The notes under the pieces were generated by a model, which was not told the DNA's origin, made no database searches, and saw nothing but the letters and a program-made list of their open reading frames with translations. From the NCBI RefSeq assembly GCF_013122565.1, contig NZ_CP053258.1: DNA of 64,000 nucleotides; one strand, written 5' to 3'. Positions within the stretch are counted from its first letter, which is position 1, and every line of letters starts with the position of its first letter. The position numbers and the translations under genes were made by a program. Source of the DNA: Escherichia coli. GTDB lineage: Bacteria; Pseudomonadota; Gammaproteobacteria; Enterobacterales; Enterobacteriaceae. Below, one piece after another: positions 48,799 through 61,240 of the stretch.

Positions 48799-48891
48799 GG
48801 TGAGGTGGCCGAGAGGCTGAAGGCGCTCCCCTGCTAAGGGAGTATGCGGTTAAAAGCTGCATCCGGGGTTCGAATCCCCGCCTCACCGCCA
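48799..48891 (+). tRNA. serV: tRNA-Ser (anticodon GCU), long variable arm, encoded CCA
   Basis: GGTGAGGTGGCCGAGAGG...CTGCTAA anticodon loop...GGTTCGAATCC T-arm...CACCGCCA. Confidence 0.95.
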
Positions 48892-48894
48892 TTT

Positions 48895-48971
48895 GCATCC
48901 GTAGCTCAGCTGGATAGAGTACTCGGCTACGAACCGAGCGGTCGGAGGTTCGAATCCTCCCGGATGCACCA
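48895..48971 (+). tRNA. argV: tRNA-Arg (anticodon ACG), copy 1
   Basis: GCATCCGTAGCTCAGCTGGATAGAGTACTCGGCTACGAACCGAGCGGTCGGAGGTTCGAATCCTCCCGGATGCACCA. Confidence 0.95.
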
Positions 48972-49105
48972 TATTCTACGTACTTTCAGCGATGAAGGTA
49001 TGGAAGAGGTGGCGGTAATAACCGCAGGCACCAGGGAGGATAACGTTGCTTTAGCAACGGCCCGAAGGGCGAGCCGCAAGGCGAGTAATCCTCCCGGATG
49101 CACCA
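48972..49105 (+). repeat. Spacer unit A (about 134 nt) ending in a pseudo-copy of the tRNA-Arg 3' end (AATCCTCCCGGATGCACCA); second copy at 49525-49657
   Basis: Two copies of roughly 85% identity by eye, both ending in the last 18-19 nt of tRNA-Arg; internal hairpins retained in both. Confidence 0.8.
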
Positions 49106-49169
49106 TCTCTTACTTGATACGGCTTTAGTAGCGGTATCAAAAAATCTGCAGTAAAGTAAGTTTCCCGAT

Positions 49170-49246
49170 GCATCCGTAGCTCAGCTGGATAGAGTACTCG
49201 GCTACGAACCGAGCGGTCGGAGGTTCGAATCCTCCCGGATGCACCA
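49170..49246 (+). tRNA. argY: tRNA-Arg (ACG), copy 2
   Basis: Identical 77-nt tRNA-Arg sequence. Confidence 0.95.
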
Positions 49247-49308
49247 TCTCTTACTTGATATGGCTTTAGTAGCGGTATCAATATCAGCAGTAAAATAAAT
49301 TTTCCGAT

Positions 49309-49385
49309 GCATCCGTAGCTCAGCTGGATAGAGTACTCGGCTACGAACCGAGCGGTCGGAGGTTCGAATCCTCCCGGATGCACCA
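49309..49385 (+). tRNA. argZ: tRNA-Arg (ACG), copy 3
   Basis: Identical 77-nt tRNA-Arg sequence. Confidence 0.95.
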
Positions 49386-49447
49386 TCTCTTAATTGATAT
49401 GGCTTTAGTAGCGGTATCAATATCAGCAGTAAAATAAATTTCCCGAT

Positions 49448-49524
49448 GCATCCGTAGCTCAGCTGGATAGAGTACTCGGCTACGAACCGAGCGGTCGGAG
49501 GTTCGAATCCTCCCGGATGCACCA
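49448..49524 (+). tRNA. argQ: tRNA-Arg (ACG), copy 4
   Basis: Identical 77-nt tRNA-Arg sequence. Confidence 0.95.
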
Positions 49525-52433: not shown

Positions 52434-52506
52434 AAAAAGGCCACTCGTGAGTGGCCAAAATTTCATCTCTGAATTCAGGGATGATGATAACAAATGCGCG
52501 TCTTTC
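52434..52506 (-). ncRNA. micA: MicA (SraD) Hfq-dependent sRNA, antisense in the gshA-luxS gap
   Basis: Minus-strand sequence GAAAGACGCGCATTTGTTATCATCATCCCTGAATTCAGAGATGAAATTTTGGCCACTCACGAGTGGCCTTTTT matches MicA as I recall it, including the terminator hairpin and U-tail. Confidence 0.9.
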
Positions 52507-52574: not shown

Positions 52575-53090
52575 ATGCCGTTGTTAGATAGCTTCACAGT
52601 CGATCATACCCGGATGGAAGCGCCTGCAGTTCGGGTGGCGAAAACAATGAACACCCCGCATGGCGACGCAATCACCGTGTTCGATCTGCGCTTCTGCGTG
52701 CCGAACAAAGAAGTGATGCCAGAAAGAGGGATCCATACCCTGGAGCACCTGTTTGCTGGTTTTATGCGTAACCATCTTAACGGTAATGGTGTAGAGATTA
52801 TCGATATCTCGCCAATGGGCTGCCGCACCGGTTTTTATATGAGTCTGATTGGTACGCCAGATGAGCAGCGTGTCGCTGATGCCTGGAAAGCGGCAATGGA
52901 AGACGTGCTGAAAGTGCAGGATCAGAATCAGATCCCGGAACTGAACGTCTACCAGTGTGGCACTTACCAGATGCACTCGTTGCAGGAAGCGCAGGATATT
53001 GCGCGTAGCATTCTGGAACGTGACGTGCGCATCAACAGCAACGAAGAACTGGCGCTGCCGAAAGAAAAGTTGCAGGAACTGCACATTTAG
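52575..53090 (+). CDS. luxS: S-ribosylhomocysteine lyase LuxS (AI-2 synthase)
   Basis: 171-aa ORF ([14 protein letters not shown]) with HTLEH metal motif. Confidence 0.96.
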
Positions 53091-53107: not shown

Positions 53108-53140
53108 GCCGGGCAGGTGACACCACCGCCCGGTTTTTTT
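53108..53140. terminator. Bidirectional intrinsic terminator shared by luxS (+) and the HD-Pnk gene (-): GCCGGGC..GCCCGG plus T7
   Basis: Hairpin and T-tract read in sequence; the HD-Pnk stop codon overlaps the T-tract. Confidence 0.75.
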
Positions 53141-54251
53141 ACCTTTCAATCACCCGATACTCCACGCTATGTGCTTCATCAGGTTGAGGAACTTCCAGCC
53201 TTGAGGCCATCCGCAGCACGACCGCTTCAGGAACTGCATACTCGCGTCTGGCATTTTGCTGCTTCCATTGCGTCCATGGCACTTCCAGATAAACGATTTT
53301 TACTCGTGCGCCGTAAGCCGTAAACAGACTGATGAGCTGGCTACGCAGCTGGCGGGTAATGTTCGTTGCATTCCAGATGAACGGCTTTTTCTGGCGTAAA
53401 AAAACGCGTGCCTCTTCTTTTGCCTGTTGCACAATACGCCCGGTGGCGGTTTTGTCGTCCGGACTGGCATTGATTCGCCGCCGCATATCATCAAGGCTGA
53501 TAACGTCAATTCCCTGGCACTGTTCACTGATATAGCGATCTTTGCCCATACCCGGTAAGCCACACAGCAAAATAACCTCAAAAGGTTCAGCCCCCCAGGG
53601 AACAAAATCAGGAGAACTTTGCTCATGAGTCAGGTAGTGCCAGCGTGCGGAATCAGAAACGAACGGGCGCACTTTTCCCCAACACTGTTGCTCCTGGCAA
53701 AACAGCTCGAACAGATCGATGCGTTCCAGCATTGATTGCTGATCCGGGCTTTGGCGACCAAGCAGATCGGCACGAGCAAGCAAAGCGAGCAGACGCGTGT
53801 CGATGCGCATTGCAGCCGTGAGCAGCAAACGCTCCGGTTCCGGACGTTCCAGTAACCACAGCGGTAACCCATGCAGACGCACCAGCGCAACAATTTGCTC
53901 GCGTAGCACGAACGGCGTAGGGATATCGCGCCATAAAATTTGTCGGGCCGTCAATTCGCCCCGCCGAGCATGGCCAGGCGACTGAATACGTCCGTTTTCC
54001 TGCACGGTAGTGCTGCGCTTTTCAACATCATGCAATAACGCCGCCGCCCATAAAACTTCCTGCTGTTGAGCGGGGAGTTGCTGGAATTCTGGCAGAGTAA
54101 CGAGGGCGTTCAGCACCATTTCGGTATGCACGCCGACGTCGCCTTCACCATGATGCTCCGGGTCTTGTGGCGTGTGATGCATCTCCTCAACCCAACTGAA
54201 ACGCTGGAGTAGTGTCGACCAGCGTTTATCGTCGGTAAGCTGCCAAATCAT
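53139..54251 (-). CDS. Bifunctional RNA/DNA end-healing enzyme candidate: N-terminal HD-domain phosphoesterase fused to a C-terminal P-loop polynucleotide 5'-OH kinase (HD-Pnk type)
   Basis: 370-aa ORF; HD motifs ([18 protein letters not shown], later His/Asp); Walker A GLPGMGKD followed by an acidic DVISLDD segment; ATGA overlap with the upstream ligase gene; absent from the K-12 luxS-emrB junction as I recall it. Confidence 0.75.
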
Positions 54252-54955
54252 GACTGTTCTCCATAAGCGAACTCATGGGCCATCCGCGCCCGTTGCCAGT
54301 GTCGTTTCCAGTGCACGGTGGTTTTGACATGATTTTTGCGCACATACTTGAAGACGTTATGCGAAAAGTCAGCGACGGAAAACGCATCACGATTCCGGCT
54401 GACAATGCCTTCCAGCGTACAGGGTTGCCCGGTTTGTGTATCCCAGGGATCGAACGCGCCGCGCGCATTGGTCAGTGCCAGAAAATCACGTTGCCAGCTT
54501 TTTTCATCATTCCCCGGCTGCGGACCGGAGATTTCGGGAACGCAGGGGAAATCAAACAGAGCGGCGTAAAACTGCACCTCTTCCCAGCTCAGCCACATAT
54601 CCTGGCAGCGAACGGCAAACAGGTAAAAGTCCTGTTCCAGCGCGCGGTATTCAATGGAATGAACGGCGTAGAGATTTTCACCAAACAGTTCCAGATCGCC
54701 GAGATCGTTTTTCAGCAGTTGCCAACGCTGGCGAATTTTATAAGTCCATGCCGACTGCGTAGGCGCAGCATGGGAACGGGCAAACACGCCGTAGCGGTTA
54801 AGGCAGTTATTTTCGCCGTCGAGTTTTTCTGTGTGCACCAGTTGCGCAATGGCCTGTAAATCCTGCCAGTAATCGGCGTTAATGCGGTCATCGCTGGTGG
54901 TGCCAGGGGAGAAAGGATAATGCCAGGTTCTCCCGTATTTTCGTTGGGTATTCAT
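54248..54955 (-). CDS. ATP-dependent RNA ligase-like covalent nucleotidyltransferase (small Rnl-type)
   Basis: 235-aa ORF with motif I KLDG (Lys44), FGEN motif III-like, EGIV motif IV, FKYVRK motif V; stop overlaps the HD-Pnk start. Confidence 0.75.
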
Positions 54956-55176
54956 AATAATCCATTATTTTGTGTGTAATAAATGTACGCCCGCGAGGGT
55001 GCGAGTTATGGGGTTAAAAGAAAAATGTGAGTATCACCCGCGAAAGCGAGGGCGAAGGAAAAAGAGAATTAACAACCTGAGCGAATGCTCAGAACCGGTT
55101 AATGGTGAATGGAAGAGTTTGGGGCGGCGAAAAGATACACCGAATGAGTGGATAAAACAACCGTTTGCAGAATGAG

Positions 55177-55202
55177 CAAATAAAAAGGGAGCCGAAGCTC
55201 CC
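55177..55202 (-). terminator. Intrinsic terminator of emrB (GGGAGC-TTCG-GCTCCC hairpin plus T-rich tail on the minus strand)
   Basis: Hairpin 10 nt downstream of the emrB stop. Confidence 0.75.
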
Positions 55203-55212
55203 TTTGACAACC

Positions 55213-61159: not shown

Positions 61160-61240
61160 GTAGGCATGATAAGACGCGCCAGCGTCGCATCAGGCATTGT
61201 GTACAGAGCGGCGGATGCGGCGAAAACGCCTTATCCGCCC
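61160..61240. repeat. REP/BIME elements between ygaY and proX
   Basis: GTAGGCATGATAAGACGCGCCAGCGTCGCATCAGGCA and GGCGGATGCGGCGAAAACGCCTTATCCGCCC palindromes. Confidence 0.75.

What the first reader, a model, noticed from the sequence alone, without database searches (positions are those of the whole stretch)
53139..54955. Two-gene RNA repair (healing plus sealing) cassette inserted between luxS and emrB
Two translationally coupled minus-strand genes (ATGA overlap at 54248-54251) sit between the convergent core genes luxS and emrB, which are directly adjacent in K-12 as I recall. The upstream gene has the motifs of an ATP-dependent RNA ligase; the downstream gene fuses an HD phosphoesterase to a P-loop 5'-OH polynucleotide kinase. 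Kinase plus 2',3'-phosphoesterase plus ligase is the complete enzymatic set needed to repair RNA cut by ribotoxins that leave 2',3'-cyclic-phosphate and 5'-OH ends (tRNA anticodon nucleases, colicin E5/D-type toxins, phage-triggered nucleases). The cassette is bounded by the intrinsic terminators of luxS and emrB, with no integrase, IS or direct repeats visible, so the mode of acquisition is unclear. It may act as immunity or counter-defence in RNA-targeting conflicts, or as stress-related tRNA/rRNA repair.
Basis: partly seen in the sequence, partly recalled or inferred. Interest (0 to 1): 0.9.

Follow-up and report, generated by a model that had tools for sequence, protein, structure and literature searches.

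The report
Ligase plus HD-kinase nucleic-acid repair operon
Between luxS and emrB this E. coli carries an intact copy of a described but poorly understood two-gene bacterial module, a nucleic-acid ligase followed by an enzyme that prepares broken ends for joining; it is an old resident of this site that K-12 and about four fifths of sequenced E. coli have lost, not a recent insertion.

Summary
Two intact, overlapping minus-strand genes fill the luxS-emrB gap.

- **Upstream gene (235 aa):** a stand-alone ATP-dependent RNA-ligase nucleotidyltransferase domain (Pfam PF09414). All catalytic motifs are present.
- **Downstream gene (370 aa):** an N-terminal HD phosphoesterase fused to a C-terminal P-loop polynucleotide kinase.
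- **Known family:** gene order, ORF overlap and domain architecture match the LIG/HD-Pnk cluster described for Runella slithyformis in 2017-18. The kind is therefore known. The E. coli copy appears unstudied and is annotated only generically.
- **Not an insertion:** the "insertion" reading is not supported. The same pair sits at the same emrB-luxS junction in E. albertii, Citrobacter, Klebsiella, Kosakonia, Phytobacter and others. Its synonymous divergence equals that of the flanking genes and its GC content is native. K-12 and 82% of 5,426 complete E. coli genomes lack it.
- **RNA-repair role:** this is plausible but inferred. In 80 of 80 species examined the ligase lies directly upstream of HD-Pnk. 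In 17 of them RtcB, and in 11 of those also PrfH (the ribosome rescue and rRNA repair pair), lies directly upstream on the same strand. A 462-kb phage also carries the pair.
- **Caveats:** the Runella ligase self-adenylylated but sealed none of the substrates tested. The title of the Deinococcus HD-Pnk study points to DNA-damage resistance.

The parts
54248..54955 (-). LIG: 235-aa stand-alone ATP-dependent RNA-ligase-type nucleotidyltransferase. Motif I is K44-L-D-G-E-N, motif III FGENLYA, motif IV EGIVSR, motif [11 protein letters not shown]. The N-terminal peptide [19 protein letters not shown] is very conserved.
   Evidence: Pfam PF09414 E=4.8e-28, residues 38-205. PHROG RNA-ligase families match at E=1e-31. 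The motifs are invariant in 20 homologues from two phyla. An AF2 model (pLDDT 76.7) matches NgrRnl, Trl1-LIG, T4 Rnl2, archaeal Rnl3 and REL1 better than DNA ligases. dN/dS is 0.03-0.16.
53637..54251 (-). HD-Pnk, N-terminal HD phosphoesterase domain (about residues 1-205). The predicted role is 2',3'-cyclic-phosphate, 3'-phosphate and 2'-phosphate end healing.
53139..53594 (-). HD-Pnk, C-terminal P-loop 5'-OH polynucleotide kinase domain (about residues 220-370). The Walker A motif is GLPGMGKD.
54248..54251 (-). ATGA start/stop overlap that couples LIG and HD-Pnk translationally.
   Evidence: Read directly from the sequence. The same -4 overlap, or a gap or overlap of a few bases, is found in 80 of 80 species loci.
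54956..55212 (-). 257-bp leader or promoter region. It holds the emrB terminator (55205-55184) and a candidate sigma-70 promoter TTGTTT-17 nt-TATCTT (about 55160-55132, found by eye and below the scan threshold). It also holds an invariant hairpin CTGAGC-loop-GCTCAG (55093-55076) and a conserved AATAATGGATTAT ribosome-binding region.
   Evidence: Sequence blocks are conserved across Escherichia, Citrobacter, Klebsiella, Kosakonia, Phytobacter and others, with a variable loop and a fixed stem. RNAalifold shows almost no covariation. There is no Rfam match. The function of this region is not established.
53109..53140 (.). Bidirectional terminator-like hairpin shared by luxS (+) and HD-Pnk (-). 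Its T-run overlaps the HD-Pnk stop codon.
   Evidence: Read directly from the sequence. A minus-strand terminator-like site at 53127-53112 is reported.

Best explanation
The two genes are the E. coli orthologues of the bacterial LIG/HD-Pnk end-healing and end-sealing operon.

Mechanism, inferred from the families:
- The HD domain of HD-Pnk hydrolyses 2',3'-cyclic-phosphate, 3'-phosphate or 2'-phosphate ends to 3'-OH.
- Its P-loop domain phosphorylates 5'-OH ends.
- The co-translated ligase reacts with ATP at Lys44 to form ligase-AMP, transfers AMP to the 5'-phosphate, and joins the healed ends.

The most likely substrates are RNAs of the translation apparatus (tRNA or rRNA) cut by transesterifying ribotoxins such as colicins, contact-dependent toxins or phage-triggered nucleases. 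This would be an ATP-dependent route parallel or complementary to RtcB.

The module is a vertically inherited, dispensable accessory of Enterobacteriaceae at the emrB-luxS junction. It has been lost in K-12 and most E. coli and is decaying in some carriers.

What is shown: gene structure, domains, catalytic residues, purifying selection, distribution and gene neighbourhoods. What is inferred: all enzymatic activities, RNA as the substrate, and the biological trigger.
For: - **Domains and motifs:**
- **Folds:** the ligase model is closest to RNA ligases (NgrRnl, Trl1-LIG, Rnl2, Rnl3, REL1), ahead of DNA ligases. The kinase domain is closest to RNA- and DNA-end kinases of repair systems (CthPnkp, T4 Pnk, Pnkp1, Mucorales tRNA kinase) and to tRNA kinases (PSTK).
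- **Match to the described cluster:** the architecture and the overlapping upstream ligase ORF are as described for the Runella cluster, whose HD-Pnk is a characterised 2',3'-phosphoesterase and 5'-OH kinase (PMC6097658).
- **Obligate pairing:** the ligase lies directly upstream in 80 of 80 species from Enterobacterales and Bacteroidota.
- **Link to RNA repair genes:** in 17 of the 80 loci RtcB lies directly upstream on the same strand within 200 bp (so probably in the same operon), and in 11 of these with PrfH between them. This occurs in both Serratia and Bacteroidota. The Serratia proteins pass the curated NCBIfam cut-offs for PrfH-linked RtcB and for PrfH. RtcB2-PrfH rescues and repairs colicin-E3-cleaved ribosomes (PMC9304027).
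- **Phage copy:** the pair also occurs adjacent in a 462-kb uncultured phage, as expected for a repair module used in RNA-targeting conflicts.
- **Selection:** both genes are under purifying selection (omega 0.03-0.22).
- **Vertical history:** same junction in other genera, dS equal to the flanks, native GC.
Against: - No biochemical or genetic data exist for the E. coli proteins.
- The prototype ligase formed ligase-AMP but sealed none of the 3'-OH/5'-PO4 DNA or RNA substrates tried (PMC6097658). Sealing by this ligase family is therefore unproven.
- The prototype HD-Pnk is described as a DNA/RNA end-healing enzyme. The Deinococcus orthologue is reported, by title only, to aid survival of ionizing radiation and mitomycin C. 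Both point towards DNA repair.
- The ligase has no appended substrate-binding domain.
- 63 of the 80 loci have no RtcB directly upstream in the same-strand chain (4 of these have an RtcB-like ORF elsewhere in the locus); the E. coli pair stands alone.
- There is no PADLOC hit.
- 82% of E. coli genomes lack the pair. ATCC 25922 carries a frameshifted ligase, so any benefit is conditional.
- I could not retrieve the Runella protein sequences for a direct comparison.
Confidence: 0.6

Rival explanations
1. The module repairs DNA, or RNA-containing DNA, rather than RNA. HD-Pnk would heal 3'-phosphate and 5'-OH DNA breaks caused by oxidative or radiation damage or by nuclease toxins. The ligase would seal nicks, perhaps those with a ribonucleotide at the 3'-OH end.
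For: The prototype is described as a DNA/RNA end-healing enzyme (title cited). The title of the Deinococcus HD-Pnk paper reports a contribution to resistance to ionizing radiation and mitomycin C. The closest ligase fold, NgrRnl, belongs to the nick-sealing class. Mammalian PNKP, a DNA repair enzyme, is among the kinase matches.
Against: RNA ligases outrank DNA ligases in the fold search. The recurrent same-strand partners are RtcB and PrfH, which act on RNA and ribosomes. No DNA repair gene recurs next to the pair in the 80 loci. uvrA, dnaB and ssb appear only as conserved synteny within Xenorhabdus.
Confidence: 0.2
2. The ligase-like protein is not a strand-joining enzyme. It would use lysyl-AMP chemistry for another purpose, for example adenylylating or capping a 5'-phosphate end made by HD-Pnk, or marking damaged RNA for decay or signalling.
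For: The Runella ligase formed the covalent AMP intermediate but joined no standard substrate. The protein is a bare 235-aa nucleotidyltransferase domain with no OB or C-terminal domain. Its most conserved segment, residues 6-24, has no confident predicted structure.
Against: All nucleotidyltransferase motifs needed for the three ligation steps, including motifs IV and V, are invariant. The strict coupling to an enzyme that produces exactly the 3'-OH and 5'-PO4 ends a classic ligase needs is most simply explained by sealing. The negative result may reflect a missing partner or the wrong substrate.
Confidence: 0.12
3. One reading: a horizontally acquired immunity or counter-defence cassette recently inserted between luxS and emrB in this lineage.
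For: The pair is absent from K-12 and from 82% of E. coli genomes. Enterobacterales and Bacteroidota proteins are 54-66% identical, which implies ancient inter-phylum transfer of the module. Relatives exist in huge phages.
Against: The same junction is occupied in E. albertii, Citrobacter, Klebsiella spallanzanii, Kosakonia, Phytobacter, Enterobacter sp. and Superficieibacter. dS to E. albertii equals that of the flanks. GC and GC3 are native. There are no mobility genes or repeats. No copy lies on any E. coli plasmid.
Confidence: 0.05

Closest known systems
Runella slithyformis LIG/HD-Pnk cluster (Munir & Shuman 2017, as summarised in PMC6097658) and Deinococcus radiodurans HD-Pnk
   Same: HD phosphoesterase fused to a P-loop 5'-OH kinase in one polypeptide of about 370 aa. 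A putative ATP-dependent ligase ORF lies immediately upstream and overlaps it. Genera of Runella's own family (Dyadobacter, Emticicia) carry proteins 54-55% identical to the window's HD-Pnk, with the same gene order.
   Different: E. coli has no adjacent Tpt1 or methyltransferase-HIT genes, and these were not recurrent neighbours in the 80 loci examined. The locus is chromosomal and polymorphic within the species. The E. coli proteins have not been tested, and a direct alignment to the Runella sequences could not be made.
Bacteriophage T4 Pnkp + Rnl1 tRNA repair
   Different: The phosphoesterase is an HD domain, not the DxDxT acyl-phosphatase. The ligase is a bare nucleotidyltransferase domain, not Rnl1 with its tRNA-specific C-terminal domain. 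The module is host-encoded.
Bacterial Pnkp/Hen1 (Pnkp1-Rnl-Hen1) RNA repair system
   Different: There is no Hen1 methyltransferase. The phosphatase here is an HD domain rather than a calcineurin-type domain. The ligase is a separate small protein rather than a Pnkp domain or Rnl4-type subunit.
RtcB/RtcA and RtcB2-PrfH ribosome rescue and repair
   Same: Repair of 2',3'-cyclic-phosphate and 5'-OH RNA breaks. RtcB lies directly upstream of LIG/HD-Pnk on the same strand in 17 of 80 loci, and PrfH lies between them in 11 of these.
   Different: RtcB joins the ends directly using GTP, without healing. In E. coli the LIG/HD-Pnk pair is not linked to either rtcB locus.
Fungal and plant tRNA ligase Trl1
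   Same: Ligase, kinase and cyclic phosphodiesterase act together. The Trl1 LIG and KIN domains are structural matches.
   Different: Trl1 is one trifunctional polypeptide with a 2H-type phosphodiesterase and a strict requirement for a 2'-phosphate. Whether the bacterial ligase has any 2'-phosphate requirement is unknown.

Membership tests
LIG/HD-Pnk end-healing/sealing operon (Runella prototype) | N-terminal HD-superfamily phosphoesterase domain with intact metal-binding His/Asp residues | tested here: met
   HD, HDIG and Cca-HD profile matches are weak. However, H34, H42, H74-D75, H94, H127 and D162 are invariant in 16 homologues, and the helical model is confident.
LIG/HD-Pnk end-healing/sealing operon (Runella prototype) | C-terminal P-loop polynucleotide 5'-OH kinase domain in the same polypeptide | tested here: met
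   AAA_33 E=1.2e-30. The best structural matches are polynucleotide kinases. The P-loop GLPGMGKD is invariant.
LIG/HD-Pnk end-healing/sealing operon (Runella prototype) | Putative ATP-dependent ligase ORF immediately upstream, with its 3' end overlapping the HD-Pnk start | tested here: met
   ATGA overlap at 54248-54251. The arrangement is as described in PMC6097658 and is found in 80 of 80 species loci.
LIG/HD-Pnk end-healing/sealing operon (Runella prototype) | Sequence orthology to the experimentally characterised Runella and Deinococcus proteins | tested here: inconclusive
   The Runella sequence could not be retrieved. Indirect support: the window protein is 54-55% identical to the proteins of Dyadobacter and Emticicia; Dyadobacter was confirmed to belong to Runella's family Spirosomataceae, while the placement of Emticicia there is from my own knowledge.
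LIG/HD-Pnk end-healing/sealing operon (Runella prototype) | 5'-OH kinase and transition-metal-dependent 2',3'-phosphoesterase activities | not testable with these tools
   Requires biochemistry.
ATP-dependent RNA ligases (covalent nucleotidyltransferase superfamily, Pfam PF09414) | Motif I lysine (KxDGxN) and motifs III, IV and V | tested here: met
   K44LDGEN, FGENLYA, EGIVSR and [10 protein letters not shown] are invariant in 20 sequences. PF09414 E=4.8e-28.
ATP-dependent RNA ligases (covalent nucleotidyltransferase superfamily, Pfam PF09414) | Nucleotidyltransferase fold closest to RNA ligases | tested here: met
   Foldseek top hits are NgrRnl (E=3e-7), Trl1-LIG, T4 Rnl2, Rnl3 and REL1. DNA ligases score at E>1e-3. 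TM-scores are only about 0.5 and the model pLDDT is 76.7.
Named RNA ligase families Rnl1, Rnl2, Rnl3 and Rnl5 | Family-specific appended domain (Rnl1 or Rnl2 C-terminal domain, Rnl3 PUA/dimerisation domain, Rnl5 N-terminal OB domain) | tested here: not met
   The protein is 235 aa. The Pfam ligase domain spans residues 38-205 and there is no further domain. No PDB chain is a sequence relative; the hemocyanin and Tako8 hits are summed-repeat artefacts.
T4-type Pnkp or bacterial Pnkp/Hen1 systems | DxDxT or calcineurin-type phosphatase; Hen1 methyltransferase partner | tested here: not met
   The phosphoesterase is an HD domain. No methyltransferase gene lies in the locus.
Horizontally inserted genomic islet | Mobility genes, target-site repeats, atypical composition, or divergence unlike the flanks | tested here: not met
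   None of these is present. GC is 52.8-53.9% against 53.4% for the window. dS matches the flanks. The junction is occupied in other genera.
Catalogued anti-phage defence systems (PADLOC 2023) | Match to a defence-system protein model | tested here: not met
   The only hit is a Cas3-HD match at E=0.047.

The most novel reading that the evidence does not exclude
LIG/HD-Pnk is a second, ATP-dependent arm of the ribosome and tRNA damage response that works alongside RtcB2-PrfH. It would repair ribotoxin-cut rRNA or tRNA whose ends RtcB cannot use (for example 2'-phosphate, 3'-OH or already phosphorylated 5' ends). That could explain why the isolated ligase is inactive on naked model substrates. 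Its presence or absence, and its decay, among E. coli lineages (present in ST131, S88 and O145:H28; absent in K-12 and O157) would then contribute to strain differences in sensitivity to colicins, CDI toxins or abortive-infection nucleases.
Probability: 0.25. Interest if true: 0.7.

Novelty: new member of a known kind. Interest (0 to 1): 0.4.

Why it matters
The LIG/HD-Pnk module is widespread. A scan with two strict exact-peptide patterns found it in 391 of about 100,000 species genomes, which is a lower bound. Its biological substrate is unknown, and its ligase has never been shown to ligate anything.

An intact copy in E. coli offers a tractable system with natural controls:
- K-12, which lacks the pair;
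- ATCC 25922, which has a frameshifted ligase;
- ST131 and S88, which carry intact-looking copies.

The recurrent gene-neighbourhood link to RtcB-PrfH gives a concrete hypothesis to test: repair of the translation apparatus after ribotoxin attack. For genome annotation, "ATP-binding protein" and "RNA ligase family protein" could be replaced by HD-Pnk and its partner ligase. The names "2'-5' RNA ligase" and "poly(A) polymerase" seen in some records are wrong.

Tried and rejected
- **Sequence searches of the PDB with the ligase** (single sequence and profile) returned only hemocyanin, a designed beta-propeller and picornavirus VP2. These come from many tiny repeat hits summed together or from borderline E-values, and I rejected them.
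- **The Asp in the P-loop (GMGKD).** I suspected it marked a dead kinase. It is invariant across the family, including a phage copy, so it is a family feature.
- **The Runella prototype sequence.** I queried with the Dyadobacter orthologue, but no Runella protein was named among the top 120 hits. The three key papers (PMC5237116, PMC6088165, PMC5062991) are not held.
- **A Tpt1 neighbour, as in Runella.** I listed the neighbouring ORFs in four Cytophagales loci but did not annotate them, so Tpt1 cannot be excluded there. No neighbour family other than RtcB and PrfH recurred next to the pair across unrelated taxa in the 80 loci.
- **A structured RNA in the 257-bp leader.** Rfam finds nothing. 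RNAalifold finds conserved hairpins but essentially no covariation. The hairpin motif occurs only in the emrB context. It is left as an unexplained conserved element.
- **The sigma-70 scan** found no promoter upstream of the ligase. The candidate I give was found by eye in conserved blocks and is weak.
- **The K-12 63-bp spacer** shares no flanking remnant with the cassette allele (only 5 + 1 bp next to the two stop codons match), so how the loss happened is unresolved.
Full report
**What is in the sequence**

Two minus-strand ORFs fill the gap between luxS (52575-53090, +) and emrB (56760-55213, -). One is 235 aa (54955-54248) and the other 370 aa (54251-53139). They overlap by ATGA at 54248-54251, and a GGAG lies 7 nt upstream of the second ATG. 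A hairpin with a T7 run (about 53109-53140) follows luxS and overlaps the stop codon of the 370-aa ORF. The emrB terminator lies at 55205-55184. No IS element, integrase, tRNA or direct repeat is present.

**What the proteins are**

*The 235-aa protein.* It matches Pfam RNA_ligase PF09414 over residues 38-205 (E=4.8e-28) and phage RNA-ligase PHROGs. Across 20 homologues from Enterobacterales and Bacteroidota (60-87% identical), four motifs are invariant: motif I K44-LDGEN, motif III FGENLYA, motif IV EGIVSR and motif [11 protein letters not shown]. So is an N-terminal peptide, [19 protein letters not shown].

An AlphaFold model (pLDDT 76.7, with the N-terminal 24 residues unconfident) is closest to these RNA ligases:
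- Naegleria NgrRnl;
- fungal Trl1-LIG;
- T4 Rnl2;
- archaeal Rnl3;
- trypanosome REL1.

DNA ligases score worse. No solved structure is a sequence relative; the PDB hits are artefacts. The protein is a bare nucleotidyltransferase domain. It lacks the appended domains that define Rnl1, Rnl2, Rnl3 and Rnl5.

*The 370-aa protein, kinase half.* It has a strong P-loop kinase domain (AAA_33, residues 226-355, E=1.2e-30). By profile and by structure this domain is closest to the following:
- PSTK;
- Pnkp1 of the Pnkp1/Rnl/Hen1 repair complex;
- mammalian PNKP;
- the Mucorales tRNA-splicing kinase.

*The 370-aa protein, HD half.* The N-terminal half gives only weak HD, HDIG and CCA-enzyme-HD profile matches. 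It nevertheless carries an invariant set of His/Asp residues: H34, H42, H74-D75, H94, H127 and D162. Its model is confident (pLDDT 92). The unusual Walker A motif, GLPGMGKD, is invariant across the family and is not a sign of decay.

**It is a member of a described family**

A paper from the Shuman laboratory describes a Runella slithyformis repair cluster. [quoted passage not shown] That is exactly the anatomy found here.

A scan of one genome per species, using two strict peptide patterns, found 391 genomes with an HD-Pnk relative. In all of the best 80, the ligase ORF lies directly upstream on the same strand, typically with the same 4-nt overlap. These 80 include:
- Enterobacterales: Escherichia, Serratia, Providencia, Xenorhabdus, Proteus and Budvicia;
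- Bacteroidota: Bacteroides, Chryseolinea, Mucilaginibacter, Chitinophaga, and Dyadobacter and Emticicia. Dyadobacter was confirmed to belong to Runella's family; I place Emticicia there from memory.

I could not retrieve the Runella sequences themselves. The primary HD-Pnk papers are not in the library. Orthology to the characterised enzyme is therefore strongly implied but not directly shown.

**It is not an insertion**

K-12 does lack the genes. Its luxS-emrB spacer is 63 bp and shares only 5 + 1 bp at the stop codons with the window's 2,122-bp spacer. Only 998 of 5,426 complete E. coli genomes carry the cassette, always on the chromosome.

Four observations show that presence is the old state:
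- The identical emrB-[LIG-HD-Pnk]-luxS arrangement is present in E. albertii, Citrobacter amalonaticus, Klebsiella spallanzanii, Kosakonia, Phytobacter, an Enterobacter sp., Superficieibacter and an uncultured Enterobacteriaceae genome.
- Synonymous divergence between the window and E. albertii is 0.47 for LIG and 0.25 for HD-Pnk. The four flanking genes give 0.28-0.39.
- GC and GC3 are typical of the window.
- Even the 257-bp upstream leader is conserved across genera.

K-12 and most E. coli therefore show loss or allelic replacement. Carriers include S88, EC958 (ST131), O145:H28 strains, LY180 and ATCC 25922.

Some copies are damaged. The ATCC 25922 ligase is annotated as frameshifted. One strain appears to have an IS3-family transposase interrupting the cassette (ligase listed twice in the annotation). 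A third allele of the junction carries IS200C instead. Both genes are otherwise under purifying selection, with omega 0.03-0.16 for LIG and 0.12-0.22 for HD-Pnk.

**What it most likely does**

The enzymology of the families predicts a heal-and-seal pathway. The HD domain removes 2',3'-cyclic, 3'- or 2'-phosphates. The P-loop domain phosphorylates 5'-OH ends. The ligase, through Lys44-AMP, joins the resulting 3'-OH and 5'-PO4 ends.

The evidence gathered here that favours RNA of the translation apparatus as the substrate is contextual:
- In 17 of the 80 loci an RtcB gene lies directly upstream on the same strand within 200 bp, so probably in the same operon. In 11 of these a PrfH gene lies between RtcB and LIG. 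This occurs independently in Serratia and in Bacteroides, Dysgonomonas and other Bacteroidota.
- The Serratia proteins pass the curated NCBIfam thresholds for PrfH-linked RtcB (584 bits against a cut-off of 272) and for PrfH (311 bits against 167).
- RtcB2-PrfH rescues and repairs ribosomes whose 16S rRNA has been cut by colicin E3-type toxins (PMC9304027). That paper does not mention LIG or HD-Pnk neighbours.
- A 462-kb uncultured phage encodes an HNH-fused ligase followed 3 nt later by an HD-Pnk with GLPGSGKD. A 360-kb viral contig has both genes 1.1 kb apart. Several jumbo phages carry the ligase alone. This recalls the T4 Pnkp/Rnl1 counter-defence logic.

**Why confidence in the function is limited**

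- The prototype is called a DNA/RNA end-healing enzyme. The title of the Deinococcus HD-Pnk study reports a role in surviving ionizing radiation and mitomycin C. A DNA-repair role is therefore a live rival.
- In E. coli the pair stands alone. It has no PADLOC match. It is dispensable in most strains.
- I put about 0.9 on the identification as a LIG/HD-Pnk module and about 0.6 on the full RNA heal-and-seal reading.

**Novelty and interest**

The kind is known, and RefSeq already annotates the genes generically as "RNA ligase family protein" and "ATP-binding protein". This is a new, apparently unstudied member in a model organism.

Three points I did not find in the accessible literature:
- the ancestral and polymorphic status of the pair at the emrB-luxS junction;
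- the recurrent RtcB-PrfH-LIG-HD-Pnk gene arrangement;
- the phage-borne pair.

The 2016 survey of RNA repair systems by Burroughs and Aravind could not be read and may cover the neighbourhoods. Interest is moderate. The finding is not surprising to a specialist, but it makes the open question of what this ligase joins directly testable in E. coli.

Noticed in passing
window 54956-55212 (minus strand); also L004, L005, L014-L021: The 257-bp leader upstream of the ligase is conserved across at least seven Enterobacteriaceae genera. It contains an invariant 6-7 bp hairpin, CTGAGC-loop-GCTCAG (55093-55076), whose loop varies in sequence and length. It also contains the conserved blocks GGTTGTTTTATC, GTGTATCTTT, CTTCCATTCAC, TCGCAC..CGCGGGCG and AATAATGGATTAT. 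A weak sigma-70-like pair, TTGTTT-17-TATCTT, lies at about 55160-55132. There is no Rfam match and almost no covariation, and the hairpin occurs only in the emrB context. Its function (promoter or operator, attenuator, or second emrB terminator) is unknown.
   Followed up: partly
L007-L009, L022-L026 (Serratia); L046, L048, L056, L068, L072, L084 (Bacteroidota): Four genes, rtcB, prfH, LIG and HD-Pnk, lie consecutively on the same strand in two phyla, so they probably form one operon. Further loci have rtcB, LIG and HD-Pnk without prfH. The Bacteroidota RtcB proteins are longer (465-523 aa) and fall below the NCBIfam cut-offs for the PrfH-linked type. The 2022 RtcB2-PrfH paper does not mention these neighbours.
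   Followed up: partly
L094 (E. coli ATCC 25922, NZ_CP009072.1 2087983-2088680); H39 (strain C325): The ligase gene is annotated as a frameshifted pseudogene in ATCC 25922, and probably in four further records (among them Seattle 1946, by name the same strain) that show the same match about 10 bp shorter. ATCC 25922 is the strain used to show RtcB2-PrfH protection from colicin E3. In strain C325 an IS3-family transposase is annotated within the match and the ligase is listed twice, so the element probably interrupts the ligase. The module is decaying in some lineages.
   Followed up: partly
L001 (K-12) 817-879; L003 (strain EC556): There are three alleles of the luxS-emrB junction in E. coli: the 2.1-kb cassette allele, the K-12 63-bp allele with its own unrelated hairpin terminator, and an allele carrying IS200C. 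The 63-bp allele is not a simple deletion derivative of the cassette allele.
   Followed up: partly
window 53139-54955 compared with L014, L015, L002: Divergence is uneven within the cassette. Against E. coli SCPM-O-B-8794, the ligase has dS 0.28 (40 differences) but HD-Pnk only 0.08 (29 differences). No complete E. coli genome is more than 98.1% identical to the window's cassette, although 528 genomes are at least 99% identical over whatever part of the luxS-to-emrB query they share, for most of them only the luxS and emrB ends. This suggests old alleles reshuffled by recombination.
   Followed up: no
L095 5584-7787 (uncultured phage LR756500.1, 462 kb): A phage copy of the pair in which the ligase carries an N-terminal HNH-like extension (CxxC...HH motifs). 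HD-Pnk starts 3 nt after the ligase stop.
   Followed up: partly
ligase residues 1-24 (window 54955-54884): The most conserved stretch of the ligase, [19 protein letters not shown], which is invariant across two phyla, is predicted with pLDDT below 50. It may fold only on binding substrate, ATP or HD-Pnk.
   Followed up: no
L062 6398-7135, L084, L093: A basic protein of about 245 aa with no NCBIfam match lies directly upstream of RtcB or LIG in three Bacteroidota loci.
   Followed up: partly
window 52435-52506 (-); 61163-61240 (-); 48799-49521 (+): MicA sRNA lies between gshA and luxS (83.9 bits). There is a naRNA4 (CssrE) match near proV. A cluster of five tRNA genes lies downstream of the csrA region. 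All are ordinary features of this chromosomal region.
   Followed up: no
names: Public records name HD-Pnk homologues 'poly(A) polymerase', 'putative nucleotidyltransferase with HDIG domain' or 'AAA family ATPase'. They name the ligase '2'-5' RNA ligase'. These names are misleading given the domains found here.
   Followed up: no
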